Notes: generated from the sequence alone by a model not told the origin. DNA of 64,000 bases from an uncultured virus (IMG/VR IMGVR_UViG_3300044296_000314) (IMGVR_UViG_3300044296_000314); one strand, 5' to 3'. Numbered from the stretch's first letter, positions 20,451 through 64,000 are shown. Program-made: numbers and translations.

Positions 20451-20451
20451 T

Positions 20452-22739: not shown

Positions 22740-22757
22740 TACGTGTACTCTTGGAAG

Positions 22758-23906: not shown

Positions 23907-24263
23907 TTAGGCCTTTCCAGAGGGAACCACAACGCCTGGAGGCGCGTCTTGGTCGTTGGTAGAGGTAGAGCTGGCGATGCGAGGATCATCAGCGTCCACA
24001 AAGACTATGGAATTGGTACCGCTCATGACGGTCGATTCGGTGGCGATGAGTCGAGCAGGTTTGACCACATACATCGTGCAACCCATGATCGTACCAAGAA
24101 CGCGAGTCTCTCGCACTACCAAATTCTGGTTTACACAATGAAGCGGTATCTCCGCATATGCCCCACGCACACCCCGTTTACGGGCGCGTACTACCTCAAA
24201 CCCCAAAAACGAGGTAGTCAACGTCAGAATAAGGAACAGTACCAATGTTGCCGGGTAGCTCAT
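23907..24263 (-). CDS. membrane-anchored hypothetical protein
   Basis: Likely start MSYPATLVLFLIL overlaps the upstream stop. Confidence 0.5.
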   Translation of the reverse strand: MSYPATLVLFLILTLTTSFLGFEVVRARKRGVRGAYAEIPLHCVNQNLVVRETRVLGTIMGCTMYVVKPARLIATESTVMSGTNSIVFVDADDPRIASSTSTNDQDAPPGVVVPSGKA

Positions 24264-25081: not shown

Positions 25082-25195
25082 GGAATTTCTCCTTGTTGTG
25101 TTTTCTACGCGGCTGCCGCACAACCCTGGTGTAGCTGGTGGCAGCCGCATAAGTAATGTCTAGCCAGCGGTGATTGTTTTGGATCGGGATAACAA

Positions 25196-25591
25196 TCAAC
25201 CCACTATATAACGATGCCTGTGCGGCACCAGTATGCGCCAATTGTACCAGGGGAGGCGTGAGCGCGGCTGCCAGTTCGAGCTGGGAGCACAAGACGCCGC
25301 AGATTCAATCACCTCTGGTGATTCAATGGGCGTCCTTACGGCAATGAAGGCTGAATCAGCTTCCTGCCGAAACCTGTCTGCTCGTAAGTAAGACGGATGG
25401 TCTTCGCAAAACTCTGGGATGCGCACCCATGACTTGCCGGATTGGAGATTTATTCCGACAGCCATTACGGTGCCTTGCAACTCATAAACAATAAGACGCA
25501 GAGGAGTTGTTTCCGCAGCCGTTGTCACCACAATACCGCAAACGGTCACTTCTACGGGCGGTTCTAGCACAGCATCGAGTATTACAGGCAT
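25196..25591 (-). CDS. hypothetical protein
   Basis: ORF tiling in the modification operon. Confidence 0.5.
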   Translation of the reverse strand: MPVILDAVLEPPVEVTVCGIVVTTAAETTPLRLIVYELQGTVMAVGINLQSGKSWVRIPEFCEDHPSYLRADRFRQEADSAFIAVRTPIESPEVIESAASCAPSSNWQPRSRLPWYNWRILVPHRHRYIVG

Positions 25592-26403
25592 GTTGCTCCG
25601 CTGCTGGGAAGATAACTAACCATGCGTTGTGCCAATTCTCCCCAGCCGCAAAGCCCATTCCGAATTTCGTGGGTGTCGTGCCCCACTTCGTAGTGGCCCT
25701 TTACATGGGATTTCCACTTGCACAGCACGGTCTCGTACTCGAAGATGTTCAATTTTCTCTGCTTTTGTGGAGGAGCCAGGCGATCTCCCAGGTGCTCAGC
25801 TAGGTGGCCCAACGCCTTGTCTAACTGTTGCCGTTGGTTGAGTATGGGCTCCGAAGGCAAGTTACGTTCGCACCACATCTGTGCGCCTTTGACTGGTTCA
25901 GCGTAAACGGACAGATTGGCGCCAGTCAGGTCTAGCTCCAAGCCTAACACTGCTTGAGCCATGTCGCACACTTTGAACGAGATCCAAGGTCCAAATTGCA
26001 CCCAGGTTTGGATGGCGGCGTTGAGTTCTGAGAACGAACGATACTGGCGCAAGTACGGCAGCAATCGGATTGGGTCCGCGAACCTCTGGTGTAGATCCGA
26101 TACACCATCTATGGCGTTTTGGGCTCTGAAGTGGCGACGTTCCGCTGAGCGCGGCCACTGGTTGGGACTGTTTTTAGCAGCAATTCGCATATGTTCCCAA
26201 AACTCTGGGGCCTTCATTTCGGAAAGTTTGCATGCTACTCCGCAATGGTAGAAACACCAGTAAGCGAGCAGCCAACGTGACAGCTGAGGCTCCGACAACT
26301 GCGCCTTGTGGAGCATGATGTAGACCGGATCGAGGTCTTCGGTGGCCAGTAACTGACGTCCAAATTCTTCGATCTCCAGCCGCTGGTACGATTGGCTGCT
26401 CAT
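25582..26403 (-). CDS. amino acid:DNA transferase (aG/T-pyrophosphorylase clade 2)
   Basis: DLDPVY, RWLLAYWCFYH, WPRSAERRHFR, FGPWISFKVCDM, ETVLCKWKSH. Confidence 0.85.
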   Translation of the reverse strand: MSSQSYQRLEIEEFGRQLLATEDLDPVYIMLHKAQLSEPQLSRWLLAYWCFYHCGVACKLSEMKAPEFWEHMRIAAKNSPNQWPRSAERRHFRAQNAIDGVSDLHQRFADPIRLLPYLRQYRSFSELNAAIQTWVQFGPWISFKVCDMAQAVLGLELDLTGANLSVYAEPVKGAQMWCERNLPSEPILNQRQQLDKALGHLAEHLGDRLAPPQKQRKLNIFEYETVLCKWKSHVKGHYEVGHDTHEIRNGLCGWGELAQRMVSYLPSSGATCL

Positions 26404-34110: not shown

Positions 34111-34419
34111 GTGAACCGAAGGGGTTGGCTGTCGTCGCTATTCGGTCTTGGCCAGCAGCATGCTCCCTCATACAGCAATTGTGTCTCTCGGCTTCCAACC
34201 CGGTGCAAGGTTCCCAATAACGAGTGCCCGGTGTGCGGAACTATGGCAAAACCTTTTGTCTGGCAGCCGCAACCGATGTGCGGTGATATTCTGCTCATGA
34301 ACAAAGATGGTACAACCAGCAGCGCTTGTTTTGAGCCAAGCACGGTACCGCCTAATCTAACTCGTTGTGAGAACTGTAACACTGCCTTCTGGCAGGATGC
34401 TGTTGGAGGTCGTCGCTGA
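34111..34419 (+). CDS. Cys-rich small protein
   Basis: CPVC, CENC; N-terminal NRRGWL. Confidence 0.45.
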   Translation: MNRRGWLSSLFGLGQQHAPSYSNCVSRLPTRCKVPNNECPVCGTMAKPFVWQPQPMCGDILLMNKDGTTSSACFEPSTVPPNLTRCENCNTAFWQDAVGGRR

Positions 34420-34525
34420 TCACATCGAAACCCTGAGCGGAGGGTTATACGCAACATGCTGGACATCGGGTCGTCCCGAAGTTAGCTATAGTAGATCAGA
34501 GCGCTTTATGTCTCTCGAGGAATCC

Positions 34526-34930
34526 ATGCCCACTGCTGACAAACCTTTGCCCGGCCTCCCAGCTCAGCGATTCAAGTACCAACAGTCCACAGGCAATTTC
34601 CTATTTGATGGACAGTTGGTGCAAATTGGTTACTCCGGCGCACCTGGTTATACCAACAATTCTCGTTTCGAGGGTTTGAAGAATTGCGGTCCTATTCCGC
34701 GCGGTAGTTACACTTTCGGAGTAGTGTATCGCAACCATCCGATAGTGGGACCTTGGGCTATCCAGCTGATTCCGGATGTGAGTAATAACATGCTGAACCG
34801 CTCAGACTTCATGATACACGGAGATAACATCAGTAAGCCAGGTACTGCGTCGAAAGGCTGCATTGTACTTGGTTATCCTGCTCGCCGATTGGTGATCGAT
34901 CATCCGCACGATCGTTTGCTGGTGTATTAG
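34526..34930 (+). CDS. Tlde1/DUF2778-like L,D-transpeptidase-fold protein (candidate lysin)
   Basis: GYSG, GPIPRGSY, RSDFMIHGD...ASKGCIV; GAGG RBS before the ATG at 34526. Confidence 0.8.
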   Translation: MPTADKPLPGLPAQRFKYQQSTGNFLFDGQLVQIGYSGAPGYTNNSRFEGLKNCGPIPRGSYTFGVVYRNHPIVGPWAIQLIPDVSNNMLNRSDFMIHGDNISKPGTASKGCIVLGYPARRLVIDHPHDRLLVY

Positions 34931-36307: not shown

Positions 36308-36547
36308 ATGTCACCTGCTGTCAAGACCTTTATCGTTGGCGCCATCGCCGCCGGTTTGTCTGCCGGGTTGGAAGCTATGTCCGACTTGGACCATTTTGAT
36401 TGGCACAAAGTCGGATTGCGAGCAGCTTATGCCACGCTTATGGTGGTAGTTGCGTTTTTGCGACAATCTCCGTATGCGGACAGCAAGCAAAAAGATGTAA
36501 ACCCAGAAGCTCCGGCAGTCACAGAGAACAACAAGTCGAAGGAGTAA
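36308..36547 (+). CDS. putative holin
   Basis: 79 aa, two hydrophobic segments, charged C-terminal tail. Confidence 0.5.
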   Translation: MSPAVKTFIVGAIAAGLSAGLEAMSDLDHFDWHKVGLRAAYATLMVVVAFLRQSPYADSKQKDVNPEAPAVTENNKSKE

Positions 36548-40604: not shown

Positions 40605-41525
40605 ATGCTCTGGGTTGACGAAAGCTGCGTGACAAGCTCTGATCTGATTGAATTGGATTCTGAGCTCATTGAAATCGCCAGCACAGAGCAGATCAACCTT
40701 GAATTCCACATACAACGGGGGCGAGAGGCGGCTCAACGCGCTCTCGTCCCCTTTCTCGATTTGTCTGGGTTTAGTCCAACAGATTTGAGCTTCCGCAATG
40801 TTAATCGCACGTCGTTCACGTCTTCATTTAACCTCCAGAGGGTGGGTTGGGCGCAAATCGTAACCCATGGTGATTCGGAGTTGGAATGGAGTTTGCTGAA
40901 ACTCTGGACTGCTGATAAGATTTTGGAGCAGGTGTACGGGGCCTGCGTTAACAAGATCGGCGATCGGTATCAGGATCGACTAGACGCAGTAGCGCTCCGT
41001 CTGCGAAACCAGAGCTGGCCGCTATTGCGCCGACAGGGTCTGCCAATTGTGATGAATCCGCTGGTAGCTCCTGGAGCGAAGTTCTACCGATCAGGCACGT
41101 TCGGCAACAGCAACCTCAGCCTTGTTGCGGGATCTGGTACGCAGACATATGACGTAAGGGTTCGCGTTACCTGGGTGTCGGAAGATGGAGTGGAGAGCTA
41201 TCCGTCCACTGTAGCTAACGCCACCCTGGCGGAGGACTCCGTGCTCTGTGTATCCATCGCCAACTTGACTCCACCTACAGCCACTCAACCGGAGTACACT
41301 ACCGCATTGTCTCAGTACACGCCCAAGGCCGCAGCTGGATGGAACGTGTACGTTGGCAATACGGATACGGATGCTTTGGTGTACAAACAAAACTCGATTT
41401 TGATTCCATTGGATACCGACAGCTACACGCTGGAGGGGGATCCGGTGTTATCTGGGACTGCTCCAGGTCTTGGGCAAGACGTTGAAATTCTGTTGGACCT
41501 GTCTTCTCGCATCCGGAGGGCTTAA
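40605..41525 (+). CDS. putative head-tail adaptor with C-terminal FN3/Ig-like extension
   Basis: Helical N-half; beta C-half (YDVRVRVTWV..GVESYPS..AAGWNVYVG); position. Confidence 0.5.
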   Translation: MLWVDESCVTSSDLIELDSELIEIASTEQINLEFHIQRGREAAQRALVPFLDLSGFSPTDLSFRNVNRTSFTSSFNLQRVGWAQIVTHGDSELEWSLLKLWTADKILEQVYGACVNKIGDRYQDRLDAVALRLRNQSWPLLRRQGLPIVMNPLVAPGAKFYRSGTFGNSNLSLVAGSGTQTYDVRVRVTWVSEDGVESYPSTVANATLAEDSVLCVSIANLTPPTATQPEYTTALSQYTPKAAAGWNVYVGNTDTDALVYKQNSILIPLDTDSYTLEGDPVLSGTAPGLGQDVEILLDLSSRIRRA

Positions 41526-42397
41526 TGCGCGTTGCGATTCAGCTATGGCTAATTTTGTTGGTAGCCACACTCAGTGCTGCTCCCACCACCATACGCCAGC
41601 GTCTGTATGCTCCGGACGGTCAGGTGGCCGTAGGCGGCACGCTAGAGCTGCAAGTGGTGCAAGCGTTTACGGCTGTTGACGGTACCTACGTTCCCGCGCA
41701 GACGAAAGTGTATCCAATATCAGCTAATGGCTGGTTAGTTGTGAACGTAGTCCCCAACACCGGATCTGCCCCAGCTTCTTGGTACCAAGCTAAATTGACT
41801 ATTTCCGGAAGCAGTACCTCCGTGACAGTTTGGAGAGTTCCCGTCAGCAGTGTACCATTGACCATACCTGATGTGACGGTGGGTTCAATCGATCCACCCA
41901 CAGTTATGATCCCTCCCTCTCAGATCACTGCTGGCGGGGCCACTACCGGGCAGGTGTTACAGTACAGCGGTTCAACGTGGACCCCATACACTTTATCAGC
42001 TCTAGTTGACCCAAGCACCACGGCAGGAGATTTGCTGTATAAGGACAATTTGGGAAATTTGAGCCGACTGGGAATTGGATCTGCTTCGCAAGTGCTGACG
42101 GTATCAGCGGGGTTGCCCATTTGGGCTGATCCAGCGGGAACCCTGTCTGTCAGCGCGGTGATAGACTCAGAGGCGATACCTGATGGATCTTGTGTATTGC
42201 ACTCGACAGCAGTTACGGTGCCTGGGGCGGCTTTGGGCAATAACACAACAATTGGATCATTATTGGTTTGGCCTGAGTCTGTGTATGTTCACGCCAAAGT
42301 TGTAGGGCCAAATTCCGTTAAACTGGAAATCTGCAACCACAGCGGCGCGTCTTACGACCCGCCCTCAACCACTTTCTACTTTGGGGTTTCTAAATGA
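41525..42397 (+). CDS. fibre-adaptor-like protein with N-terminal signal peptide
   Basis: MRVAIQLWLILLVATLSA; fibre N-terminal-like domain; GATTGQVLQYSG and GDLLY..LGIGSASQVL fibre repeats. Confidence 0.65.
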   Translation: MRVAIQLWLILLVATLSAAPTTIRQRLYAPDGQVAVGGTLELQVVQAFTAVDGTYVPAQTKVYPISANGWLVVNVVPNTGSAPASWYQAKLTISGSSTSVTVWRVPVSSVPLTIPDVTVGSIDPPTVMIPPSQITAGGATTGQVLQYSGSTWTPYTLSALVDPSTTAGDLLYKDNLGNLSRLGIGSASQVLTVSAGLPIWADPAGTLSVSAVIDSEAIPDGSCVLHSTAVTVPGAALGNNTTIGSLLVWPESVYVHAKVVGPNSVKLEICNHSGASYDPPSTTFYFGVSK

Positions 42398-43230
42398 AAA
42401 CACTTTTGATTTCCATTTTTGCGGCTGCTCTGGTTTTTGGCCAAGCGCAGCCTGTGACTCGCACGAAGTCGTATGCTGGCACGCCCACGGCTGGTGATTG
42501 CACGGCCAGTACCATTGGCGTTCTGGTCGGCGTCAATACTGCGCCGGATCCGGACGTGATCTATGATTGTCTCACGGTAAGCTCAACTCCCACTTGGGTG
42601 TTGCGCAACAACACTGCAGGAACTGTCACCAGCGTGGATTTGAGTGTGCCTTCTGCCCTGCTATCTGTGAGCGGCGGACCTATCACCAGTACCGGCACCC
42701 TTGCCATTGCTCTGCCCACAAGAGCGCAAAATTTGGTGTTTGCCGGCCCTACGTCCGGTTCGGCGGCCACTCCGACGTTTCGATCGCTGGTTTTGGCGGA
42801 TATTCCTGATTTGTCTTCTATTCTACAGCCGCTGGACAGTGATCTCACAGCTATTGCTGCTCTTTCCCCAACTCGAGGGGGTTTGATTCGTCGAGGAGCA
42901 TCGGCGTGGGAAGCGGTAGCGTTGGGCACCTCTGGTGCCATCCTACAGAGCGATGGAACTGATGCCGTGTGGACCGCTCGCATCTCTTCGGCCAGCACCA
43001 TCGATTTTGCCTCTGTTAACGATGGCGCTTGCTTAGAAAGCACCATGACTTTGACCGGAGTAAATTTTGGAGATCCATTAGCTCTCGGCATATCGGCAAC
43101 ACTTCCTGCTGGAATTCACCCTGCAGTTATTGTTTCTGCAGCCGATACTGCGAAAGTTCAGATCTGTAACAACTCCGGCGCTGCGGTGGATTTGTCCTCT
43201 CTCACGTTTACTGTTCGGGTGGTGCGGTAA
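42394..43230 (+). CDS. short fibre-like protein with signal peptide
   Basis: MKTLLISIFAAALVFG/Q; GTVTSVDL..GPITSTGTL, VFAGPTSG..PTFRSLV and QPLDSDLTAIAAL fibre motifs. Confidence 0.7.
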   Translation: MKTLLISIFAAALVFGQAQPVTRTKSYAGTPTAGDCTASTIGVLVGVNTAPDPDVIYDCLTVSSTPTWVLRNNTAGTVTSVDLSVPSALLSVSGGPITSTGTLAIALPTRAQNLVFAGPTSGSAATPTFRSLVLADIPDLSSILQPLDSDLTAIAALSPTRGGLIRRGASAWEAVALGTSGAILQSDGTDAVWTARISSASTIDFASVNDGACLESTMTLTGVNFGDPLALGISATLPAGIHPAVIVSAADTAKVQICNNSGAAVDLSSLTFTVRVVR

Positions 43231-45581
43231 TGCGGGCCGCGTGGCTGATCGTTGCCACGCTGGCGGCGTGGGGGCAGGCGCAGCCAGTGGGTCGCGTGTG
43301 GACTTACAGCGGCACGCCCACGGCGGGGGATTGCACATCCGCCAATTATGGACACGTTGCCCAGGACATCTCTGGATCCACGGCGAACATCTACGATTGC
43401 AAGAAATCGGGTGGGTCGGCTGCATGGGTGTTGCGCGCTACTGGTGGCGGCGGTGGCGGCGGGGATGTTTCCGGCGGTACGAACCTAGTCACCTCTGGTG
43501 CGGCGGTGATGGTGGATTCCGCTGGAGTAGTGACGCAGGCTGCAAACACAAAATTTGTAAACGGAGTGTTTCAAGCGACCAAGAATATCACCGGAACAGG
43601 GTTATTTGAGACATTTTGGGGAGCACCTACCTATGACAATCTGGGCCTGTTTCAGTACGATTCGTACACTGATTATGGGTTGGTTTTTATAGCTGCCGGA
43701 AGTAGGGGATCAGCTGGCATGTGGAATGAGTATCTCAAGACTCGTTCCGCAGACGGGAATACTAACGGAGCTGTATCTTCAGGGGATGAAATAATGCTCC
43801 TGAGGTCATTGGGGGATGATGGAACAAATATTTGGAATGTTGCCGCGACTATTGGGACCTATGTCGACGGAACAGTAGCAAGTGCCTCTATTCCAGGACG
43901 AATTTCTTTTTCTACCACAAAAATTGGAAGCAGTTATGAAACTCTAGCAGTAAGCATCAAAAACACCGGAAATGTCATTATTAGTGACGAATATGCGGAG
44001 TCTAACATCGCTCTTGACGTTCGACGCAGCGGCAGCACCGGAACCTTCCGCCTGTGGGATCAGGTCTCGATAACGGGCACCACCAACGGATACATTCGCG
44101 CTGGCGCTGGGCAATCGGGAAACCTGCTCACGTTCCAGGATTCCAGCGGATCCACGCTTACGGGCATCACGTCTGCTGGGGCCTTCACCGGCAACGCGGC
44201 GACGGCAACGACTTTGGCAACTGCTCGCGCCATCAACGGGGTCAGCTTCGACGGATCCGCTCCGATCACAATTACGGCCAACTTGCCGGCGAACCCGGCA
44301 GCGTGTTCTGCCGGCCAGTACGTCACCGACACAGACGCTGCGGGCGTCCTGACGTGTGCCCAAGTAGCGTATTCTCAGGTGTCCGGTACGCCTACTCTCG
44401 CTGCTGTAGCCACTTCTGGAAGCGCGGCCGACCTGTCCACAGGAACTCTCCCCGCCGGGCGTATGCCGGCCCTCACTGGCGACGTCACAACGTCCGTGGG
44501 AACTGTGGCGACGACGGTGTCCAAGATCAACGGAACATCCCTCGCCGGTCTCGCAACAGGGCTGCTGAAAAACACGACGGCGACCGGCGTCCCGTCCATT
44601 GCTGTCGCGGGGACTGATTATGTCGTTCCTGCGGGCAACGTCGCTACAGCCACGGCGCTGGCTGCCAACGGCACCAACTGCTCGGCCGGTTCGTACCCGC
44701 TTGGGGTGGACGCCAGCGGGAACGCTGAGTCTTGCACTGCGGCCGCAACTGGTACGGTCACCTCTGTCGGCTGGACCGGCGGCATCGTATCCGTCGCAAC
44801 AGGCACCTCAACGCCCGCATTCACCATTTCCGGAACATCCGGCGGCATCCCGTATTTCTCGAGCTCTTCGACGTGGGCGTCGTCCAGCGCCCTCGCCGCA
44901 AACACGTTCGTCATGGGCGGCGGTGCCGGCGCTGCGCCGACTACAGCAGCCGGGTACACCGTATCCACTGCTGGATCGTCTGGAGGTACGAATTACAACG
45001 AAGGCACATCGACGAGTCTGGCTCGCGCCGATCATCAGCACGTTCCAGCGGCGGTGGGTAGCGTCACCCCGGTGACAGTCAATACTAACACCACGAGTGA
45101 CCAAAATCTGATGGTGCTGACCATTCCAGCCGGAGCGCTTAATCAGGCCAATCGACACACGCGGTTCCGATCGGCGGGAGTGTATACAACGCAGACCAGT
45201 CAAACGCCGACAGTTACGTTGAAGGTCAAGCTTTGCACAGTCAGCGGATGCGGCTCCGGTACGGTAATCACCCTTGCCACCTGGACGAGCGCCGCGACGA
45301 CGGCGGCGGCGTCAAATATGCCATGGAATTTCGACATCAACCTGGCGGGGGTCACGACGGGCGCGACGGGCACAGTGGAAGCCCACGGCTCGTCGAATAT
45401 CACACTGACAACCACAGCTAGCGGCACGACAACTACACGTAATGACACCAACACTGCGGCGTCTTCGGCAATCGACCTCACCGGGACGCTGTACCTGCAA
45501 ACCACTATCACGTTTTCGACCAACGCGGCGACGGCAAACACCGCTTCACAGCGTATGGCGTCGTTGAACTTTATGAATTAG
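43230..45581 (+). CDS. long fibre-like protein with signal peptide
   Basis: MRAAWLIVATLAAWG/Q; GNAATATTLATARAINGVSFDGS, LAAVATSGS, LTGDVT and ARADHQH fibre motifs. Confidence 0.75.
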   Translation: MRAAWLIVATLAAWGQAQPVGRVWTYSGTPTAGDCTSANYGHVAQDISGSTANIYDCKKSGGSAAWVLRATGGGGGGGDVSGGTNLVTSGAAVMVDSAGVVTQAANTKFVNGVFQATKNITGTGLFETFWGAPTYDNLGLFQYDSYTDYGLVFIAAGSRGSAGMWNEYLKTRSADGNTNGAVSSGDEIMLLRSLGDDGTNIWNVAATIGTYVDGTVASASIPGRISFSTTKIGSSYETLAVSIKNTGNVIISDEYAESNIALDVRRSGSTGTFRLWDQVSITGTTNGYIRAGAGQSGNLLTFQDSSGSTLTGITSAGAFTGNAATATTLATARAINGVSFDGSAPITITANLPANPAACSAGQYVTDTDAAGVLTCAQVAYSQVSGTPTLAAVATSGSAADLSTGTLPAGRMPALTGDVTTSVGTVATTVSKINGTSLAGLATGLLKNTTATGVPSIAVAGTDYVVPAGNVATATALAANGTNCSAGSYPLGVDASGNAESCTAAATGTVTSVGWTGGIVSVATGTSTPAFTISGTSGGIPYFSSSSTWASSSALAANTFVMGGGAGAAPTTAAGYTVSTAGSSGGTNYNEGTSTSLARADHQHVPAAVGSVTPVTVNTNTTSDQNLMVLTIPAGALNQANRHTRFRSAGVYTTQTSQTPTVTLKVKLCTVSGCGSGTVITLATWTSAATTAAASNMPWNFDINLAGVTTGATGTVEAHGSSNITLTTTASGTTTTRNDTNTAASSAIDLTGTLYLQTTITFSTNAATANTASQRMASLNFMN

Positions 45582-45589
45582 GAGCATTT

Positions 45590-45958
45590 ATGAGAACCCT
45601 TCGTCTGTCCGTATTGTCCTTGTTTCTGTGTCTGTCGCTATTTGCGCAGAGCATCACCTTCACTGTCACCGAAGCAGACGGAACCACCCAAACGGCGACG
45701 ATCTCCGGACCTGCCGCTGCTGCTGGAATCGACAGTGCGAAGCAATGGTTAGCCACTCAGAAAGATCGAGACGGTAACCCGAAGTATGCCCATCTGGCGG
45801 ATATGCTGAAACAGAGCGCCATCGACTTTGCCGAACGGATTTCTTTGCGATTCCCCAGCGCGAGCACCAAAGCGATCGTGGCGGAGATTGCCGCTAAACA
45901 AGCTGCGTTGGACGCTGCGCGCAAGGCTCTGATGGATGCTGCAAGGGGTCAGCAATAA
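45590..45958 (+). CDS. secreted protein (signal peptide ending LFA/Q), helical C-terminus
   Basis: MRTLRLSVLSLFLCLSLFA/Q; AGGAG RBS. Confidence 0.65.
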   Translation: MRTLRLSVLSLFLCLSLFAQSITFTVTEADGTTQTATISGPAAAAGIDSAKQWLATQKDRDGNPKYAHLADMLKQSAIDFAERISLRFPSASTKAIVAEIAAKQAALDAARKALMDAARGQQ

Positions 45959-46180
45959 ATGCATCCAATTTGCCTCTCCTTTCCATATTGTGATTCTTGC
46001 CATGGTTCTGGCTTGCGGAGTGGAGGGGATGAGTGCTCATGCGTGGATCGTGCTCGCCAACGCTTGGTGGCGGCTGCTCGTACACCATGGGAGCGGTTGT
46101 CAGTGGAGTCGAAGCTCTGGCCAGAACGGTTTCCTCCAAACCCGATACCACGGAGTTCACTATGCGCCTCATTTCGTTGA
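45959..46180 (+). CDS. small Cys-containing hypothetical protein
   Basis: CDSCHGSG..CSC; starts immediately after the upstream stop. Confidence 0.4.
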   Translation: MHPICLSFPYCDSCHGSGLRSGGDECSCVDRARQRLVAAARTPWERLSVESKLWPERFPPNPIPRSSLCASFR

Positions 46181-46596
46181 TACTTGCGTCAGTGTCGGTA
46201 TTTTGCCAGACAACAGTCAAAACAGATCAGGTGCGCACGACCCCAGCATCGACTGCGCGCCTGTTGGCTGCTGATGCTACTGGAAAAATTTTTGTAGTTG
46301 AACTTGGGGCAGGACTCACTATTTCCGGTGGTCGTATTGTCTTGGTCCCTGCTTCTACTGTGGATCAGACCATTGCAGTTGAGACGCTGAAGCCTGATGT
46401 CAATGGAAATTACCCGGCCCGTCCCGGCGCTGTCTACGTTCGCAATGGACTTGTTCAGTCGGAAACGGTAGACTACAGTATCACCCTCGCTACTCTTCGT
46501 CCGATTTTGCCTTGGTCCTCAGACGATGCTATTTTGGCCATCACCATTAAACCCATTACGCGCCAACTCTCCGCGCCAACAGCGGGGGCACCCTGA
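46162..46596 (+). CDS. secreted virion-like protein
   Basis: GGAG RBS; MRLISLILASVSVFC/Q; VYVRNGLVQ..VDYSI motif of virion beta-domains. Confidence 0.6.
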   Translation: MRLISLILASVSVFCQTTVKTDQVRTTPASTARLLAADATGKIFVVELGAGLTISGGRIVLVPASTVDQTIAVETLKPDVNGNYPARPGAVYVRNGLVQSETVDYSITLATLRPILPWSSDDAILAITIKPITRQLSAPTAGAP

Positions 46597-46602
46597 GCGT
46601 TT

Positions 46603-46704
46603 ATGTTCCGACTCCTCATTCTTCTCGCGTTGTTTGGGTCGGCTCTGGCTGATCTACAGCATGTCGCACAAATGTCTACTGCCAAAGACCACACGGAGTT
46701 ATAA
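46603..46704 (+). CDS. 33-aa peptide with signal sequence (MFRLLILLALFGSALA/DLQHVAQMSTAKDHTEL)
   Basis: Own translation; fills the gap, and its stop abuts the GTG at 46705. Confidence 0.45.
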   Translation: MFRLLILLALFGSALADLQHVAQMSTAKDHTEL

Positions 46705-47736
46705 GTGAGCCGTTTACCCACTTTAATTGCTAGTCATGCCGATGATATTGAAGCGGTGGCAGCAAAACTCGAAAAAGACTTGGAGAGCTTGTTGACTCAA
46801 GCTGGAGAATATCTTCGGCAGCAATTATCGGATACTTTGAGGACTACAGTAGCTGGAACAGTCGCAGCTACCTCAGGTAACTTGAAGGTGCTCTCTAACT
46901 TAGACAGCATGGTTTGGAAGTATCTGCAGGAGAACGGATACCCAAAAATCATACAGGAGTACCAGGACAGCTTTAACGGGCAGTATGTTGCTTTTGAGAA
47001 CGTGCTGAAGGCGATCAACGAGGAGCTGTCCTGGCCTCTTCCCACACCTTCCATTGACCCTAAGGGTCTGCAGCTGAAGGCGGCACAGATACAACAAGCA
47101 GCGCTGATCGATAGCGTGGTGGAGCAGTCCCTATCCCGCGCTAAACGCACATCCCTGGAACAAATTGGGGCGGTCAACGCCAAGCAGCTTGCCGAAGCCA
47201 TCCAGTCGCAGTTGCATAAGTCGGTCGCACAGGCTCAGGCGATCGCCGATACGGGTTTGAGCTCCTTTTACAGGGCTATCACTGATAAGGGATATCAGAT
47301 CATCGAAGATGACTTGCCGGAGATGAAGATACGATATGTGTACGAGGGTCCGTTGGACGTTTTGACCCGTCCGTTTTGCACGAAGCTGCAGAGGCAATCC
47401 AATTCCGGCAAGAGCTGGACCAGGCAACAGATCAACGCCATGGATAACGGCCAGTTGCCCAATGTGTGGTTAACTGCAGGTGGGTATCGGTGCCGGCATC
47501 AATGGATCATTGACACTACTGATCTGAAATCACAGCAAGGGGACAAACCTGTGAGACGCCAGAGTTCAAGTGGCAGCAAGCGCCAGCGCAGCTCAGCCAT
47601 AGCGGAAGAAACTCGATCCCGCCGCATCATAAATCAAGATAGAATAAAGCGTACACCGAAGTTAGATTCTAGCCAACAACGAGAGCTAGCACAGCAAAGA
47701 ATCAAGGACAAGAAGGATCAGCGTGGCAAAAAGTGA
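46705..47736 (+). CDS. minor head/morphogenesis protein (SPP1 gp7/Mu F-like)
   Basis: YEGPLD..TRPFC, GGYRCRHQW. Confidence 0.7.
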   Translation: MSRLPTLIASHADDIEAVAAKLEKDLESLLTQAGEYLRQQLSDTLRTTVAGTVAATSGNLKVLSNLDSMVWKYLQENGYPKIIQEYQDSFNGQYVAFENVLKAINEELSWPLPTPSIDPKGLQLKAAQIQQAALIDSVVEQSLSRAKRTSLEQIGAVNAKQLAEAIQSQLHKSVAQAQAIADTGLSSFYRAITDKGYQIIEDDLPEMKIRYVYEGPLDVLTRPFCTKLQRQSNSGKSWTRQQINAMDNGQLPNVWLTAGGYRCRHQWIIDTTDLKSQQGDKPVRRQSSSGSKRQRSSAIAEETRSRRIINQDRIKRTPKLDSSQQRELAQQRIKDKKDQRGKK

Positions 47737-59600: not shown

Positions 59601-61058
59601 ACTGGCGCAGTGACAAGCGACACCACACCAGCGTCCATTACCCTGAGCTCATTGAACGAGGCCACCTGGGGTATGCCGGATGTGGAATTTGACTCCGCTA
59701 TTCTGCGCGGTAAGGTTTGCGTTAGAGCTGGACTCATTGGGGCGGAGGTTTTGTCAGTTACCTCCAACACCATACAAATGAGCCTGTTTACGGACAACCC
59801 GCTCACGGTCAATCAGTTTCAGCCAGTGTCCGGCAAATACTACCACATCATACTTGTGGGCATGGACCAGGACTATCCGTTGCCTTTGGCGAGTTGGTCC
59901 ATCAACAGCAACACTGGAGACACTTTCACAGTAACTGGACCGGATTGCACGACCATTCCGCGTGGAGACGGTACCCTCGGAATGCAGGCTGGTGACGTGG
60001 TTGTGGTAACTATGCGGCCCACTGTCGGATCAGATGCGGATGGCAACTACATAGAAGATCTGAATTGGGTGAACGCGCTCAATCCACTGTTGACCTCCCA
60101 TGAGATTGTGGGAGCTTCCAACTCCACTCCCATTGTCATCTCTACAACTGATTCACACGGATTGGTTAGTGGACAAAAGGTGTTCCAAAAAGACGTGGAG
60201 GGTAACGTAGCAGCCAACGGCGTGTTCTGGGTGAGCGTGCTCACAGATAACACATTTGAGTTGTATTCTAACGCCAGCCTGATCACTCCGGTTGCCGGGG
60301 TGGCGGACTGGATCAGCGGCGGCACTGTACAGCGCCAGTTGGAAGGTTTGACCGTTGACTCTGACATCGGCTACGAACTGTACTGCATCAAGGGTACTGG
60401 GGCGGGCAACTGGTACAAAATCAAGAAGAACTCCAGCACGCGCATCTGGATCGAAGGCAGCTGGAACGTTACTCCGGACGAAACCAGCGTGTTCGTGGTC
60501 AACAATAGCGGCTGGAACTTCAACGTTCCGACAGAAACTTTGAATAACACCGTCAATACAACACCGCTCACGTTTACCATGGATATACCCAACTACTTGG
60601 GTCAGGTGCTATTCGTGCAGGGCTTCACGCGAGATGGTGGAGGAAATGAGCCTCACCGGGCCATGTGCCCTTGGCGTTTGATCTATGTGTACGGCAGGAC
60701 AAACACGACGCTCAGCAACAACGATGGCTACTATGAGATGGAGACCATCGCCGGAGAAGTGACCCCTGATCTGGCCAACGGTCTCAGCCAGCAGGAAAGC
60801 GCCACCGGCAACGTGTTGGTCAATAACCCGGTCAATAGTGCTGGAGCCATTGTTGCTGGAATGCGACTGTATATTAAGATTGTACAGGATGCCACCGGAT
60901 ACCGCCAAGTCACCTGGGGATCTGAATTTGTTGGGTTCGCGGACGGCACGGAAGACCCGGTTCAGGATCCGAACACCTACTCTTGGTACGAATTTGTTCG
61001 CACTAACGCCGGCAAGTGGGAACTACGCAACAGTTCAAAAGGAAGACCAATATCATGA
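56637..61058 (+). CDS. tail tip/hub (host-specificity J-like) protein
   Basis: 1473 aa; NPAWIILDAL..IDLDSF, PNRVSFPFADEDNSF, LRLGHIV motifs. Confidence 0.8.
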   Translation: MPVGNINTAKELVIGYKPLLLAVITFTDSIGSPTKRRYASSGLNTADGSFVPVISGFPETGQSFLTRIKNSEIAATQALSEQGIDVTPTVTLELSDVDKALWVDEKNLGHKGADLTLYFVFWNVGQNDFSSDYFLIFSGVCGPGSVSEKTLSVSAVSRSNLAQKYLPTFHVQRRCSHIFPDTTLLNTTEATALHQQVADDPSHPSYACHYSVLASGSGARGNMNGGSHYQSCGQTFEQCIERMGNSALVAPPFAPIEKDTSGRFTGTFSGVRWDQPAKFQSRGYAEKASIEGLNSVNEAKYNDLVPMGWGTFWVDPVILNVVGDANFTRFEALVGVGEYSSLRKVIVNDIEIDKWGTSTDQQNQQISLQMHWREWNTGSVFGRVNGDTVYDFNGDPYGSQKVISVTIPRKLNPSSSIPRVRILADGPKTRKYQSISSISVSGGVATATLVGINRDIAGNGTFNFTIAGSSKSDVNGSYTSLTNWTYGPPGTIQFPTGASNGSGTGGYIRYEQVNTNPAWIILDALTWLDYKYSRIDLDSFMAAAAFYDENINYTDQYGVTNSHARFKLSLGLRQRTVGSDLIRQLRTSCRSTLVPHPTTGALQLMPDRTLASQQPSAVAGSNYNISVKSVNEAGTVTPGYVAYKFSYSTIAQSNAQGDSSFSMEQLPIQSTPNRVSFPFADEDNSFQSDSLTLVDAEDIRRSGQEVNGSIPVIGIMNFDQAARTAAHWMAIKSRGNNRGDTGGTYQFSLETTYRCVHLRLGHIVLVDYPQYGLNAGIESPAGTAINGFLARVMSIKPSANFERVKLVLQYHVDAHYLDSWGQSAAPRYSGLRRDRLSRPALPWLPYEQQPEASSSLFPVTEWGFSIAADYSVGANLEPQAKLIARGKMPVNSLAPSSLSPPAVGSQGTTASTGGTITGNQKIWAQISVEDSDGLSSAPSDSDTACEIDIPSGTNTNTITIPVLQWDYPEGTNYTLFAGNSRSKLSQQATGAVTSDTTPASITLSSLNEATWGMPDVEFDSAILRGKVCVRAGLIGAEVLSVTSNTIQMSLFTDNPLTVNQFQPVSGKYYHIILVGMDQDYPLPLASWSINSNTGDTFTVTGPDCTTIPRGDGTLGMQAGDVVVVTMRPTVGSDADGNYIEDLNWVNALNPLLTSHEIVGASNSTPIVISTTDSHGLVSGQKVFQKDVEGNVAANGVFWVSVLTDNTFELYSNASLITPVAGVADWISGGTVQRQLEGLTVDSDIGYELYCIKGTGAGNWYKIKKNSSTRIWIEGSWNVTPDETSVFVVNNSGWNFNVPTETLNNTVNTTPLTFTMDIPNYLGQVLFVQGFTRDGGGNEPHRAMCPWRLIYVYGRTNTTLSNNDGYYEMETIAGEVTPDLANGLSQQESATGNVLVNNPVNSAGAIVAGMRLYIKIVQDATGYRQVTWGSEFVGFADGTEDPVQDPNTYSWYEFVRTNAGKWELRNSSKGRPIS

Positions 61059-64000
61059 ATAAGTTCATAATCGCTCTGCTGCTGTTGATGTTCGAGCTGT
61101 GGGGTCAATCCTACAACAAGCTCCTCATCACGCCGAATCAAACTAACGTCACCCCTGGTATCCTGGGGTTTCGCCCTCTGTACCCGTCAGTGTACGAGGC
61201 ACAAATATCTGCGCCGGATACTTTGGTGGCCACGTATCGCTTACGATTGCCAGGGGGTGTGCCAACGGCTGATGGGCAGTGTCTCACCGGCACTACTGCT
61301 GGGTTGACGAATTGGGCTACCTGCGGGACTGAGCGAACGATGTCCGACTACAATTGGTCTCAGGTAATGGGAGCGCGAAGCGGATCCGGACCGATCACGC
61401 TCACGTTTACAGGAACCTCTTGTCCGGCGGCTGGAACTGATGCGGCTTACGTGTTGCGCGTGTACGAAACCGTCACGCCCACCACTTATGAGTTGGCAAT
61501 CTCCAATGGAACCGGAACCTGTGTTCGTGGTGGAGCAGGAACTATTGTCGCTACTGGACCTACGGGTACCTATACCAACGCTACGGCCACCTCTGCCAGT
61601 TCCGGCGCGCAGGAGGCCATATTTAGTGTGGCTGACGGGCTTCCTGTGCGCGTGCGGGTGAAGGAGGGTGGGTACTATGTGTACTCCGACATCGTTGATG
61701 AGACACGTCCTGTGACGATTGCGTGCGATTCCAATTCGGCGCTGTTCGTTCCCATGATCGACAACGTATCGATCATTAACAGCTCATCTCCCAGCGGGAT
61801 CCGTGTCTATAATTGCGGCTTCAACAACATCTACGCCAAATCCGGAACCAAGGCAATCAGGACGTATAATCCATACGGCGACAGCTTCGGGTCTTCCATT
61901 TCTGGGAATATGATGGCTGGATTTTCTACCTGCGCGGACCTTCAGACGGTGTACGGAATCAAGTCGTACGAATTCAATCACCACATCGACTGCACGGACA
62001 CCGCGCTGTTTTTGTCAAACGTCAATACTGGTGACGCAGGTATCGGCCTGATTGGTCCTGGCAACCTGTTCAGCGACTCAGTGACTGCCAATTATGGCGT
62101 GAATTGGAATGGTCCGGGCAACCTAAAAATCAAGCACAACAGCTTCAATGGGTATATTGAGCAAATACACCTGGAGCCAAAAATGGGTGTGGTGAACGTG
62201 TCTGGCACATCGGTTACCTGGGTCAGCGGAAACCGATTCCGTTCAACGATGGCCGGGGGCCTGCTCGTTGCCGGATCGACAGTTACCTCCACGATCGCCA
62301 CCTATAACAGCAGCACATCGTTGACCCTGGCAACTTCGCAGCCGACTTGCACCGGATGCTCATACTATGTGAACAACACCGGGCAGATGCAGATCGAGGG
62401 AAACACGCTCGACTCCTGGACCTGGACCACGCACACGGTCCGGTTCTCCGGGGGTATCCCGTTCTTCAACTGGCAATTTCAGAACAACTTCACCAGTAAT
62501 CCCAACTCCAGCACTTACTCGGCAGCGGTCACTGTCGACGGTGCCGGTTGGTATTTCGGGTCAATCAAAGGGAACAACCTCCAGAGCAGTTACGCCATTG
62601 GCAAAGCTGTGAATATCACGGCTGGGAACTTCACCACCGTAAGTGATAACGAGGTCGTAAACCACCTCACTGGCGTCAATGTTGGATCTGCCGCTATTTC
62701 GACGACCGTCGATGGAACAAAGTGTGCAAACAGCAATACCACGAATTGTGTTCTCTCGGCGTCCTCGACGACGATTGCGCGCGAAATCAACTCGGTGACC
62801 TATACACAGCTTGCCGCTTTAACATCGGCGGACTCATCGACGCTGTATTGCTCAAACTGTAAACGCACGTCGCTCGCCTCCAATACCTGCACCAGCGGTG
62901 GCAGCGGCGCACGCGCTACACGCATCAATGGGACCTGGTCATGCGACGATGGAGCGGTTAGTGGTCCGTGGTCGCCGACTGGTTCTGACATCTATTTCTC
63001 CGGCACCGGAAACGTTGGTATTCACGGCGTGCCGGTGGCCGACCTTTCGATCACAGGTGGTGGGGCGGGGGCGAATTCACTACTGATCCAGGACGGCAGT
63101 GCCACCACTACTTTGCAGCTCTTCGCTGACAGTGGTTTCGCTGTGCTTGGCACCTATACCGCGCATCCCTTCATTTTCACGACAGACTCGGTTGGGCGCT
63201 GGCGGCTGACATCAGCGGGCATGCTCCATCCAGAGACCACGGACGCTTACGACATCGGCCTCACCAGCAACCGGGTGCGTGGGCTGTATGCGCGGTTTGG
63301 AGAGTTTATGGTTTCTGGCGGGACGTCGTCATCCGACTATGTCAGCACTCGGAAGGTCAACGTCTGCGACAATTCTGGCGGATCCGGATGCTGGGATATT
63401 CAAGCTGGCGCGTCGATGGCCTCCACTTCAGAGTTCAAAATCCGTGACAACGCGGGATCTAGGTGGTTGGAGGGATGGCGAGCATCGCTTGGTTCGCCGC
63501 TGAACTTCACGTCCGTCTTCAGTGATTGGATTCCGGCAAAGCGGGCAACTGGTTCTGGAGATGCTGTGAGCGATTCGACATTTCCAAAACTGGGTTCTAC
63601 TAGCGCACCGTGGGCAGAGATGCACGCAGATCAGATTTATGGTGATCTGAAATCCAGCACCACGAACACCAAGAAGATCCAACCTGACACTGATTTGACG
63701 TGGGATCTCGGCGATCCGTCGAAGCAGTACAACGCCTTGTGGGTGGGATCTATTACAGCCACATCCAACATCACGTTTTCAGCGCGTGCCATTTTCTCAG
63801 CTGATCAGACCATTGACTTCGGCACCTCGTCCAATCGCCTTCGCCGCCTGTATGCGACCGGGTGGACGACATACGGCTCATCGTTTGCGGCGTCTGGATC
63901 TTCGATCACGATCCAATCTGGCGCCACATTTACTGATGGGCGCACCTGTTCGTCAGGCGATGTGTGGACCTCAGATGCCAGCGGTAATCTGGCGTGCGCT
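61055..64000 (+). CDS. tailspike/fibre with signal peptide and probable beta-helix domain (3' end runs off the window)
   Basis: Own translation: MNKFIIALLLLMFELWG/QSYNK..., open to the window end; ATGA overlap with the upstream gene; Asn-rich beta-helix-like repeats; YDIGLTSNRVR and WDLGDPSKQY fibre repeats. Confidence 0.8.
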   Translation, partial: MNKFIIALLLLMFELWGQSYNKLLITPNQTNVTPGILGFRPLYPSVYEAQISAPDTLVATYRLRLPGGVPTADGQCLTGTTAGLTNWATCGTERTMSDYNWSQVMGARSGSGPITLTFTGTSCPAAGTDAAYVLRVYETVTPTTYELAISNGTGTCVRGGAGTIVATGPTGTYTNATATSASSGAQEAIFSVADGLPVRVRVKEGGYYVYSDIVDETRPVTIACDSNSALFVPMIDNVSIINSSSPSGIRVYNCGFNNIYAKSGTKAIRTYNPYGDSFGSSISGNMMAGFSTCADLQTVYGIKSYEFNHHIDCTDTALFLSNVNTGDAGIGLIGPGNLFSDSVTANYGVNWNGPGNLKIKHNSFNGYIEQIHLEPKMGVVNVSGTSVTWVSGNRFRSTMAGGLLVAGSTVTSTIATYNSSTSLTLATSQPTCTGCSYYVNNTGQMQIEGNTLDSWTWTTHTVRFSGGIPFFNWQFQNNFTSNPNSSTYSAAVTVDGAGWYFGSIKGNNLQSSYAIGKAVNITAGNFTTVSDNEVVNHLTGVNVGSAAISTTVDGTKCANSNTTNCVLSASSTTIAREINSVTYTQLAALTSADSSTLYCSNCKRTSLASNTCTSGGSGARATRINGTWSCDDGAVSGPWSPTGSDIYFSGTGNVGIHGVPVADLSITGGGAGANSLLIQDGSATTTLQLFADSGFAVLGTYTAHPFIFTTDSVGRWRLTSAGMLHPETTDAYDIGLTSNRVRGLYARFGEFMVSGGTSSSDYVSTRKVNVCDNSGGSGCWDIQAGASMASTSEFKIRDNAGSRWLEGWRASLGSPLNFTSVFSDWIPAKRATGSGDAVSDSTFPKLGSTSAPWAEMHADQIYGDLKSSTTNTKKIQPDTDLTWDLGDPSKQYNALWVGSITATSNITFSARAIFSADQTIDFGTSSNRLRRLYATGWTTYGSSFAASGSSITIQSGATFTDGRTCSSGDVWTSDASGNLACA

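What the first reader, a model, noticed from the sequence alone, without database searches (positions are those of the whole stretch)
41525..46704. Late-gene block of fibre-like proteins carrying Sec-type signal peptides: candidate exported virion-appendage system
Seen: five ORFs and one peptide between the head-tail adaptor and the head-morphogenesis gene start with basic-hydrophobic-cleavage signals. They are MRVAIQLWLILLVATLSA (41525), MKTLLISIFAAALVFG/Q (42394), MRAAWLIVATLAAWG/Q (43230), MRTLRLSVLSLFLCLSLFA/Q (45590), MRLISLILASVSVFC/Q (46162) and MFRLLILLALFGSALA (46603). The tailspike at 61055 does too. Several mature regions carry phage-fibre motifs. Capsid, portal, tube, TMP, Dit and hub lack such signals. 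Established: tailed virions assemble in the cytoplasm and fibres normally have no signal peptide. Inference: these appendages are exported and folded in the periplasm and join the particle only during or after lysis. Alternatively they are displayed on the infected cell for superinfection exclusion, as decoys, or for adhesion.
Basis: partly seen in the sequence, partly recalled or inferred. Interest (0 to 1): 0.92.

Follow-up and report, generated by a model that had tools for sequence, protein, structure and literature searches.

The report
Phage tail fibres carrying export signals
An uncultured tailed phage puts ordinary bacterial secretion signals and paired cysteines on its fibre-like proteins and its tailspike, so its host-recognition parts probably fold outside the cytoplasm in which the rest of the virus particle is built.

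Summary
Five consecutive late genes (41525, 42394, 43230, 45590, 46162) and the tailspike (61055) start with Sec/signal-peptidase-I-type leaders. The 33-codon ORF at 46603 looks alike but has no relatives to check it against. A crude predictor flags none of the other 18 late proteins.

The leaders are conserved features, not chance. Across homologues the hydrophobic core varies, but Gln at +1 is kept in 24 of 24, 18 of 20 and 50 of 53 aligned sequences. The mature parts hold even numbers of closely spaced cysteines; those of the 278-aa fibre and 13 of the spike's first 20 are invariant or nearly so.

The proteins are true fibre or spike relatives. Two unrelated phage backbones share only this cassette with the window phage, leaders included. 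There it sits behind the tail-tip genes.

Cultured Cellulophaga phage phi18:3 has three leader-bearing proteins that GenBank annotates as structural from MS/MS.

Export and periplasmic folding are well supported. Membership of the virion and attachment at lysis are inferred, and secreted non-virion roles remain open.

Six literature searches found no description for tailed phages, but earlier notes of this scan report the same pattern in many genomes. The host is unknown.

The parts
41525..42397 (+). SP1: 290-aa fibre-like protein; leader about residues 1-18 (probable cleavage LSA|AP); C-terminal beta-domain with a Cys223-Cys270 pair, shared with SP2
   Evidence: Orthologues in L003 (leader ...PTFA|ALTTITD) and L011 (true start at an inner Met...PAFA|QTATISD) keep a leader. 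The C-terminal domain is 32% identical to that of SP2.
42394..43230 (+). SP2: 278-aa short fibre; leader 1-16, Gln17 at +1; N-terminal disulfide domain, central fibre-repeat region, C-terminal beta-sandwich
   Evidence: 441 homologues. The 24 aligned full-length ones all keep the leader; Q17, C36, C59, C213 and C258 are invariant. phrog_9625 at 3e-14. The central part matches tail proteins of phages Motura and RSL1. AF2 model: N-domain pLDDT 85-89, C-domain 70-78.
43230..45581 (+). SP3: 783-aa long fibre; leader 1-15, Gln16; same N-terminal domain as SP2; 8 cysteines in 4 close pairs
   Evidence: phrog_1833 'tail fiber protein' at 8.9e-7, residues 313-376. The L003 orthologue keeps a leader and is 85% identical over the last 276 aa.
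45590..45958 (+). SP4: 122-aa exported protein directly behind the long fibre; leader 1-19, Gln20; C-terminal part looks helical by eye (not folded); candidate co-exported assembly helper (inference)
   Evidence: The one homologue, P0147, is 75% identical over the best BLASTP alignment (84% of the query), has a different leader and keeps Gln at +1.
46162..46596 (+). SP5: 144-aa exported small beta-protein; leader 1-15, Gln16; member of a widespread family of proteins of about 120-145 aa with leader + 'QT..' N-termini
   Evidence: 65 family representatives; in 59 of the 64 rows other than the window's own the alignment begins at query residues 39-64 of the 187-aa ORF. 53 of 65 are flagged with a leader. 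Gln at +1 in 50 of 53 aligned. AF2 model pLDDT 90.4, with only weak matches to phage neck, tail and fibre parts.
46603..46704 (+). SP6: 33-codon ORF with a leader-like N-terminus; reality unverified
   Evidence: Its only other copy is the identical one in L002. Weak ribosome-binding site.
61055..64000 (+). Tailspike (1311 aa in full; the window holds 981); leader 1-17, Gln18; conserved N-terminal domain; 22 cysteines in 11 close pairs
   Evidence: 19 of 21 homologues keep a leader. PF13229 (beta-helix) is precomputed for 5 of the 21. 13 of the first 20 cysteines are invariant or nearly so.
60720..61043 (+). C-terminal 108 residues of the 1473-aa hub: candidate docking site for the spike (inference)
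   Evidence: 44% identical to the C-terminus of the otherwise unrelated 560-aa protein that precedes the spike in L011. Not found in G003. No binding test could be run.

Best explanation
The fibre-like proteins SP1-SP3, the small proteins SP4 and SP5, and the tailspike are late phage proteins made as Sec preproteins. The host's signal peptidase I cuts them, mostly just before a glutamine. A host cyclase may then convert that glutamine to pyroglutamate. The proteins fold, form short-range disulfides and trimerise in the periplasm. SP4, which follows the long fibre, is probably a co-exported helper.

Head and tail are built in the cytoplasm without these parts. When the holin opens the inner membrane, particles meet the periplasmic pool. 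The conserved N-terminal domains dock on the tail tip, possibly on the conserved C-terminal domain of the hub for the spike. The lysis step would then also be the last assembly step.

Shown here: the leaders, their conservation, the paired cysteines, the fibre homology, and the cassette-like sharing between phages. Inferred: actual export and cleavage, pyroglutamate, the disulfides, virion membership, and the time and place of attachment.
For: (1) Leaders sit on 6 adjacent ORFs and the spike, and on none of the other 18 late proteins.

(2) In the 278-aa fibre family the leader's sequence drifts while the mature N-terminus is kept: mean column identity 0.51 against 0.74 in A1 (0.57 against 0.67 in A2; no contrast in A5, 0.42 against 0.45). 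Gln at +1 occurs in 24/24, 18/20 and 50/53 sequences. Position -1 is G, A or S in 23/24 (A1) and 50/53 (A5).

(3) Cysteines in the mature parts: SP1 2, SP2 4, SP3 8, spike 22, SP4 and SP5 0. All counts are even and the cysteines lie in close sequential pairs. The four of SP2 are invariant and 13 of the spike's first 20 are invariant or nearly so. The non-leader late proteins carry many odd counts and 0.73% Cys, against 1.37%.

(4) Fibre homology: phrog_1833 tail fibre protein for SP3. The central part of SP2 is shared with annotated tail proteins of phages Motura and RSL1. It is also shared with 60 ORFs in the fetched loci, most of them leaderless.

(5) SP2, SP3 and a third protein in L011 share one N-terminal domain right behind the leader. 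Spike homologues share their N-terminal 100 residues. This is the usual pattern of docking domains (recalled).

(6) G003 (41.8 kb, rated 100% complete) and the temperate G002 share with the window only the spike, SP1-3 and, in G002, the hub C-terminus. There the genes lie behind the tape measure and tail-tip genes. In G003 no other large fibre-like gene was seen.

(7) No Shine-Dalgarno-preceded inner start follows the leaders directly, so I see no sign of leaderless isoforms.

(8) Cultured precedent: Cellulophaga phage phi18:3 gp085-087 are annotated 'structural protein ... experimental MS/MS proteomics'. All three begin with leaders followed by Gln. phi46:3 gp079-083 do the same.

(9) A holin (PF05105, 7.5e-28) and an M15 peptidase lie beside the cassette in the relatives.
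Against: No experiment or virion proteome exists for this phage or its close relatives, and no dedicated signal-peptide predictor was run.

Export separates these proteins from the cytoplasmic particle, and joining only at lysis means dilution. No mechanism is known that would keep the fibres near the particles.

In the window the block lies in the head/neck part of the late operon, not at the tail tip.

The 1473-aa hub could itself bind the receptor, so the exported proteins need not be essential virion parts.

Half of the aligned spike homologues (10 of 20) have Pro at the aligned -1 position. That is poor for signal peptidase I (recalled), so their cleavage site may lie elsewhere.

The hub C-terminal domain is shared with only one of the two relatives.

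Proteins can co-purify with virions, so the MS/MS annotation of the Cellulophaga proteins does not prove attachment. I could not read the paper behind it.

Structure searches gave only weak matches: best E 0.05 for SP2 and Z 5.6 for SP5.
Confidence: 0.5

Rival explanations
1. The proteins are exported but are not virion parts. They are fibre- and spike-derived accessory proteins that act on the infected cell's own envelope. They could mask or destroy the receptor (superinfection exclusion, or protection of progeny from sticking to debris), cut capsule or slime to free progeny, or serve as adhesins.
For: The leaders and cysteine pairs show an extracytoplasmic life, which does not fit cytoplasmic assembly. 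Cellular proteins of the same build exist: Bdellovibrio MAT fibres have a signal peptide, a conserved N-terminal domain and a phage-like trimeric fibre, and are displayed on the cell surface (passages of PMC10769870). Pantoea WceF is a Tat-exported trimeric protein with a tailspike fold that trims exopolysaccharide (passages of PMC7949094). The P. gingivalis phage paper reads its Q-rule leader genes as modifiers of the host surface. In the window the block lies away from the tail tip, and the large hub could be the true receptor binder.
Against: In G003 and G002 the genes fill the receptor-binding slot behind the tail-tip genes, and G003 shows no other candidate fibre. The conserved N-terminal domains and variable distal parts, and the transfer as a cassette between unrelated phages, are what virion receptor-binding modules do. 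Leader-bearing proteins of the same kind are annotated as MS/MS-detected structural proteins in phi18:3.
Confidence: 0.27
2. The N-terminal segments are not cleaved. They act as signal anchors that hold the fibres at the inner membrane and let go when the holin depolarises it, as signal-anchor-release (SAR) endolysins do. Attachment to particles would then be timed by lysis.
For: The hydrophobic cores are short and rich in Ala, Gly and Ser, as SAR domains are (recalled). Pro at the aligned -1 position in 10 of 20 spike homologues argues against cleavage at that site. Sec-dependent phage lysis proteins are known (passages of PMC8878798 on signal-peptide endolysins).
Against: Cores of 10-14 uncharged residues are too short to span a membrane (the required length is recalled). 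Small residues at -3 and -1 and a near-invariant Gln right behind them are the marks of a cleavage site. L003 holds a natural leaderless paralogue that starts exactly at the predicted mature N-terminus of SP1.
Confidence: 0.1
3. The leaders are chance hydrophobic stretches, or come from wrongly chosen start codons.
For: No SignalP run. The 33-aa ORF has no support. Gene callers chose other starts for the window's own spike and SP5 (P0125; P0148).
Against: Background rate of 3.3% against 6 adjacent hits. Leaders conserved in dozens of homologues. Starts coupled to the preceding stop codons. Homologue alignments fix the SP5 start.
Confidence: 0.02

Closest known systems
Canonical tail fibres and tailspikes of tailed phages (P22 gp9, T4 long fibres, lambda Stf; recalled)
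   Same: Fibre-repeat and beta-helix content, conserved N-terminal domain with variable distal part, place behind the tail-tip genes in relatives, mosaic exchange between phages. Attachment of spikes and fibres to finished particles in vitro is classical (recalled), so late attachment is feasible.
   Different: Those proteins have no signal peptide and fold in the cytoplasm. Here there is a conserved Sec-type leader, Gln at +1 and paired conserved cysteines.
Cellulophaga phage phi18:3 gp085-087 (KC821620) and phi46:3 gp079-083 (KC821622)
   Same: Consecutive large proteins of a cultured tailed phage that start with leaders followed by Gln. Those of phi18:3 are annotated as structural from experimental MS/MS. 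A relative of gp080 is annotated as pectate lyase in other records.
   Different: Bacteroidota host and a different family (Pachyviridae). I found no sequence relation to the window's proteins. Few cysteines. I could not read the paper behind the records, so whether the leaders were noticed or removed is unknown to me.
Mosaic adhesive trimer (MAT) fibres of Bdellovibrio bacteriovorus (PMC10769870; abstract and passages read)
   Same: Signal peptide, then a conserved N-terminal domain, then a phage-like trimeric fibre with a swappable tip; they work outside the cytoplasm.
   Different: Chromosomal genes of a predator, displayed on its own surface and not part of a virus. Sequence relation was not tested here.
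Pantoea stewartii WceF (PMC7949094; passages read)
   Same: Exported trimeric beta-helix protein with a tailspike fold.
   Different: Bacterial gene in an exopolysaccharide cluster, with a Tat signal rather than a Sec-type one. None of the seven leaders printed shows a twin-arginine motif (by eye).
Sec-exported and SAR endolysins (fOg44-type; passages of PMC8878798)
   Same: Late phage proteins that use the host Sec system and wait outside the cytoplasm until the holin acts.
   Different: Those are lysis enzymes, not fibre or spike proteins.
Q-rule signal-peptide genes of Porphyromonas gingivalis phages (PMC10367356; passages read) and the Bacteroidetes Q-rule (PMC5837995; passages read)
   Same: Phage genes whose predicted cleavage exposes Gln. 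High Gln frequencies are typical of Bacteroidetes and of some others such as Ignavibacterium album.
   Different: There the genes are of unknown function and are read as host-surface modifiers. Here they are fibre and spike homologues. The window's genes carry Shine-Dalgarno motifs (21 of 25 late genes), which Bacteroidota rarely use (recalled).

Membership tests
Sec / signal peptidase I substrates | Positive n-region, uncharged hydrophobic core of about 7-15 residues, small residues at -3 and -1 | tested here: met
   Home-made heuristic: 7 of 25 late proteins, 0 of the other 18. -1 is G, A or S in 23/24 (A1) and 50/53 (A5). For the spike family -1 is P in 10/20, so the site is uncertain there.
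Sec / signal peptidase I substrates | Leader conserved in architecture, not in sequence, across homologues | tested here: met
Sec / signal peptidase I substrates | Actual export and cleavage | not testable with these tools
   Needs fusions, fractionation or N-terminal mass spectrometry.
Bacteroidetes Q-rule substrates | Gln at +1 after cleavage | tested here: met
   5 of 7 leaders in the window; 24/24, 18/20 and 50/53 in the three families.
Bacteroidetes Q-rule substrates | Host belongs to Bacteroidota and has a glutaminyl cyclase | tested here: inconclusive
   Host unknown. Only distant relatives in genomes. Shine-Dalgarno motifs before 21/25 late genes argue against Bacteroidota (recalled). 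The Q-rule paper reports high values in some other lineages too.
Virion tail fibre / tailspike | Homology to known fibre or spike domains | tested here: met
   phrog_1833 for SP3. SP2 matches Motura and RSL1 tail proteins. PF13229 precomputed on 5 of 21 spike homologues, although Pfam found nothing on the window's own spike.
Virion tail fibre / tailspike | Encoded next to the tail-tip or baseplate genes | tested here: met
   The spike follows the hub in the window. The whole cassette follows the tail-tip genes in G002 and G003. The block 41525-46704 itself does not: it lies in the head/neck part.
Virion tail fibre / tailspike | Present in purified virions | not testable with these tools
   Only an analogy: phi18:3 gp085-087.
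Virion tail fibre / tailspike | Binds the tail tip | not testable with these tools
The only lead is the hub C-terminus shared with L011.
Lipoprotein exclusion factors (Llp / Cor type; recalled) | Lipobox with Cys at +1 | tested here: not met
   No leader has Cys at +1. The Cys of SP5 is at -1 and is not conserved (1 of 53).
SAR (signal-anchor-release) proteins | Uncleaved, membrane-spanning, weakly hydrophobic N-terminal segment | tested here: not met
   Cores of 10-14 residues with a conserved cleavage motif. A leaderless paralogue starts at the predicted mature end.
Bdellovibrio MAT fibres | Signal peptide + conserved ~130-aa N-terminal domain + trimeric fibre + variable tip | tested here: inconclusive
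   The same layout by eye, but the N-terminal domain here has about 55 residues. Sequence and fold relation to MAT proteins was not tested.

The most novel reading that the evidence does not exclude
Some tailed phages of double-membrane hosts build their particles in two compartments. Head and tail form in the cytoplasm. The whole host-recognition set (spike, fibres and their helper) is exported by Sec, folded oxidatively and N-terminally capped in the periplasm, and clicked on only when the holin opens the inner membrane. Lysis would then be the final assembly step. The cassette moves between unrelated phages with its leaders, which suggests that the host, not the phage lineage, imposes this route.
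Probability: 0.42. Interest if true: 0.85.

Novelty: new variant of a known kind. Interest (0 to 1): 0.66.

Why it matters
Textbooks place all assembly of tailed phages in the cytoplasm. If receptor-binding parts mature in the periplasm, that picture is incomplete, and three practical points follow.

- A signal peptide would no longer mean 'not structural' in annotation.
- Such fibres and depolymerases would need periplasmic, oxidising expression to be made in the laboratory.
- The leader type (for example Gln at +1) could help to assign hosts to uncultured phages.

It would also raise a testable question: how do particles and fibres find each other at lysis? Cultured Cellulophaga phages with leader-bearing structural proteins offer a system in which to answer it.

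Tried and rejected
**Host**
- No whole genome is held for the window, and there are no tRNAs.
- The genome-contig scan found only six distant relatives in MAGs of different phyla.
- The cluster look-up gave no organism names.
- The Atlas look-ups gave only viral clusters and low scores.
- G002 is classed as a provirus, but the contig holds only phage genes and an integrase.
- The host stays unknown.

**Rest of the genome**
- An exact 44-base pattern from the window's end found nothing in the viral contigs.
- The spike's C-terminus came from P0125 instead.

**More relatives**
- The metagenome scan gave one close fragment and 40 distant loci.
- No SP5-family gene lies in any fetched locus other than L002.

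**Flanking genes**
- Pfam, PHROGs and PDB sequence searches did not confirm 'head-tail adaptor' for 40605-41525 or 'head morphogenesis' for 46705-47736.
- Only portal, scaffold and capsid match phage Ab18.

**Folds**
- The SP2 monomer model is poor in its middle part (pLDDT 58.5 overall). Its best PDB match is a Klebsiella phage depolymerase at E 0.05.
- The SP5 model is confident, but its matches are weak. Foldseek against PDB gave E 0.03. The viral library gave one row at 4.6e-5. VIA gave Z of 5.6 or less, below the tool's stated noise level.
- PDB sequence searches for SP3 and the spike profile found nothing meaningful.

**Binding of the spike N-terminus to the hub C-terminus**

**Literature**
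- Six searches turned up no paper that describes signal peptides on tail fibres or spikes of tailed phages. I judged this from listings, abstract starts and passages of three of the listed papers. This is no proof of absence.
- The Holmfeldt 2013 Cellulophaga paper is not held. Supplementary Data 4 of PMC10367356 was not opened.

**Rejected readings**
- Lipoprotein, Tat and SAR readings (see the membership tests).
- Leaderless isoforms from inner starts.

(the pattern GATCC) was a stray call with no bearing on the finding.


Full report
**What the window is.** The 64-kb window is most of the genome of an uncultured tailed phage.
- The minus-strand half encodes replication and thymidine-hypermodification genes: family A DNA polymerase, 5-hmdU DNA kinase, amino acid:DNA transferase, thymidylate synthase and helicases.
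- The plus-strand half from 33175 onwards is the late operon: small and large terminase, portal and capsid by family matches; scaffold by its match to Ab18; the roles of tube, tape measure, Dit-like protein, the 1473-aa hub and the spike are taken partly from size and order, with only weak or no matches.
- The capsid protein is 72% identical to that of Pseudomonas phage Ab18. Of 25 late proteins, only portal, scaffold and capsid match that phage.
- No tRNA gene was found and no host genome is held.

**The observation.**
- The starts at 41525, 42394 and 43230 overlap the preceding stop codons. GGAG motifs precede 41525, 45590 and 46162.
- No signal-peptide program was on hand, so I wrote a crude one: positive n-region, uncharged hydrophobic core, small residues at -3 and -1.
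- It flags 7 of 25 late proteins, namely the six of the block and the spike. It flags none of the other 18.
- Over all six frames it flags 22 of 673 ORFs of at least 30 aa. Six neighbours cannot be chance.

**Conservation of the leaders.**
- *SP2 (278 aa).* The search gave 441 proteins at E <= 0.001, of which the best 120 were listed. I aligned 24 of the full-length ones. I left out P0019 (same leader as P0016), P0029 (an N-terminally short call), and the partial or longer P0015 and P0017. All 24 have a leader. Its core differs from sequence to sequence while Gln17 is invariant, and the first 40 mature residues are better conserved than the leader: mean column identity 0.74 against 0.51.
- *Spike.* 19 of 21 homologues start with a leader. 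The two exceptions are the window's own protein, called from an inner Met, and a call that begins inside the leader.
- *SP4.* Its single homologue is 75% identical over the best BLASTP alignment (84% of the query), carries a quite different leader, and again has Gln at +1.
- *SP5.* It belongs to a large family with 65 representatives at 50% clustering. In 59 of the 64 rows other than the window's own the alignment begins at residues 39-64 of the 187-aa ORF. This fixes the true start at 46162. My heuristic flags 53 of the 65, and Gln is at +1 in 50 of the 53 that I aligned.
- *SP1.* The orthologues in L003 and L011 keep leaders, the one in L011 from an inner Met.
- *The 33-codon ORF at 46603.* It has no relatives outside the identical copy in L002 and stays unverified.

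**Signs of life outside the cytoplasm.**
- Apart from single cysteines inside the leaders of SP4 and SP5, the cysteine counts are 2, 4, 8, 0, 0 and 22. All are even, and the cysteines lie in close sequential pairs.
- The four cysteines of SP2 are invariant. Of the spike's first 20, 13 are invariant or nearly so at 37-57% identity.
- The late proteins without leaders have half the cysteine density and many odd counts.
- Disulfide formation itself is inferred.
- There is no lipobox, and no twin-arginine motif among the seven leaders printed (by eye). The Cys at -1 of SP5 occurs in only 1 of 53 family members.

**What the proteins are.**
- SP3 matches a PHROG of tail fibre proteins.
- The central part of SP2 is shared with annotated tail proteins of phages Motura and RSL1.
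- That central part is also found in 60 ORFs of the fetched loci. My heuristic flags 12 of them as leader-bearing (13 if the SP3 copy in L002, which the threshold of that call missed, is added). The leader is therefore a lineage-specific addition to a common fibre scaffold.
- SP1 and SP2 share a C-terminal beta-domain.
- SP2, SP3 and a third protein in L011 share a 55-residue N-terminal domain with a cysteine pair right behind the leader.
- Five of 21 spike homologues carry the beta-helix family PF13229, though Pfam finds nothing on the window's own spike.
- Structure work added little. The SP2 model is good only in its end domains, and its best match is a phage depolymerase at E 0.05. The SP5 model is confident (pLDDT 90.4), but its matches to phage neck, tail and fibre parts are at noise level.

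**The cassette moves between unrelated phages.**
- The two closest loci belong to quite different phages. G003 is a 41.8-kb siphophage rated 100% complete. G002 is a temperate phage with an HK97-type capsid and an integrase.
- They share with the window only the spike and SP1-SP3, and in G002 also the last 108 residues of the protein that precedes the spike.
- In both, the cassette lies behind the tape-measure and tail-tip genes, next to a holin or an M15 peptidase.
- In G003 I saw no other large fibre-like gene.
- In the window the fibre block has moved into the head/neck part of the operon.
- L003 also holds a leaderless paralogue of the SP1 N-terminal part. It begins exactly at the predicted mature end.

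**Host.** Unknown.
- Gln at +1 recalls the Bacteroidetes Q-rule, which also holds in some other lineages.
- Shine-Dalgarno-like motifs precede 21 of 25 late genes, against 18% of random sites. This speaks against Bacteroidota (recalled).
- G+C content is 54% for the window and 59-60% for the two relatives.

**What is known.**
- Six searches found no paper that describes signal peptides on fibres or spikes of tailed phages (listings, abstract starts and a few passages only).
- Related facts do exist. P. gingivalis phages carry Q-rule leader genes of unknown function. Sec-exported endolysins are known. Bdellovibrio MAT fibres and WceF show that phage-like fibres and spikes can work as exported cellular proteins.
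- Earlier notes of this scan report the same pattern in many other genomes: 120 findings hold the searched words (more). They pointed me to Cellulophaga phages.
- I checked that lead. phi18:3 gp085-087 are annotated as structural from experimental MS/MS, and all three start with leaders followed by Gln. phi46:3 gp079-083 do the same. I could not read the paper behind these records.

**Verdict.**
Export and periplasmic folding are strongly suggested.
- I give odds of about 0.5 that these are virion parts which attach at lysis.
- I give about 0.27 to the rival that they are secreted, non-virion envelope-acting proteins.
- Beyond the earlier cases of this scan, this window adds four things: a host that uses Shine-Dalgarno sites; a leader-bearing cassette shared by three unrelated phage backbones; a fibre block moved into the head/neck region; and a natural leaderless paralogue.

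Noticed in passing
window 18993-26403 (- strand): A cluster for thymidine hypermodification: thymidylate-synthase-like protein, two 5-hmdU DNA kinase domain proteins, GNAT acetyltransferase, FAD oxidoreductase and amino acid:DNA transferase.
   Followed up: no
window 34367-34930 (+): A 187-aa protein with a Tlde1 domain (L,D-transpeptidase-like, 3.1e-11) lies between the small and large terminase genes. It could be a cell-wall enzyme of the phage. No holin or endolysin was identified within the window.
   Followed up: no
window 61055-64000 and P0125: The last 40 or so residues of the spikes are highly conserved and end in a cysteine pair (consensus ...SAGTGTC...GGTC), although the region before them varies. 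The purpose is unknown; a sorting or folding signal is possible.
   Followed up: no
spike homologues, alignment A2: Ten of 20 spike homologues have Pro at the aligned -1 position (…AAFP|QAQTPL), and so does one SP2 homologue. Either cleavage lies three residues upstream, or the host's peptidase tolerates Pro there.
   Followed up: partly
L003 4917-5264 and 12016-12357; L003 11257-11721: G003 carries two copies of a 113-115-aa hydrophobic protein. It also carries a leaderless 154-aa paralogue of the SP1 N-terminal part, whose C-terminus matches a PHROG tail-protein end. This looks like a partial duplication of the fibre and lysis region.
   Followed up: partly
L085 5614-8148 (G002): The helicase of the temperate relative is interrupted by an intein (Intein_splicing, 1e-11).
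   Followed up: no
window 36308-36547 (+) and 23387-23569 (-): Two small ORFs (79 and 60 aa) with hydrophobic N-terminal segments, flagged by the heuristic. They are possible membrane proteins. The first lies between terminase and portal.
   Followed up: no
whole window: GATCC occurs 192 times on both strands, against 131 +/- 12 expected from shuffles; none of 100 shuffles reached that number (a stray call). Many sites are GGATCC palindromes. Unexplained.
   Followed up: no
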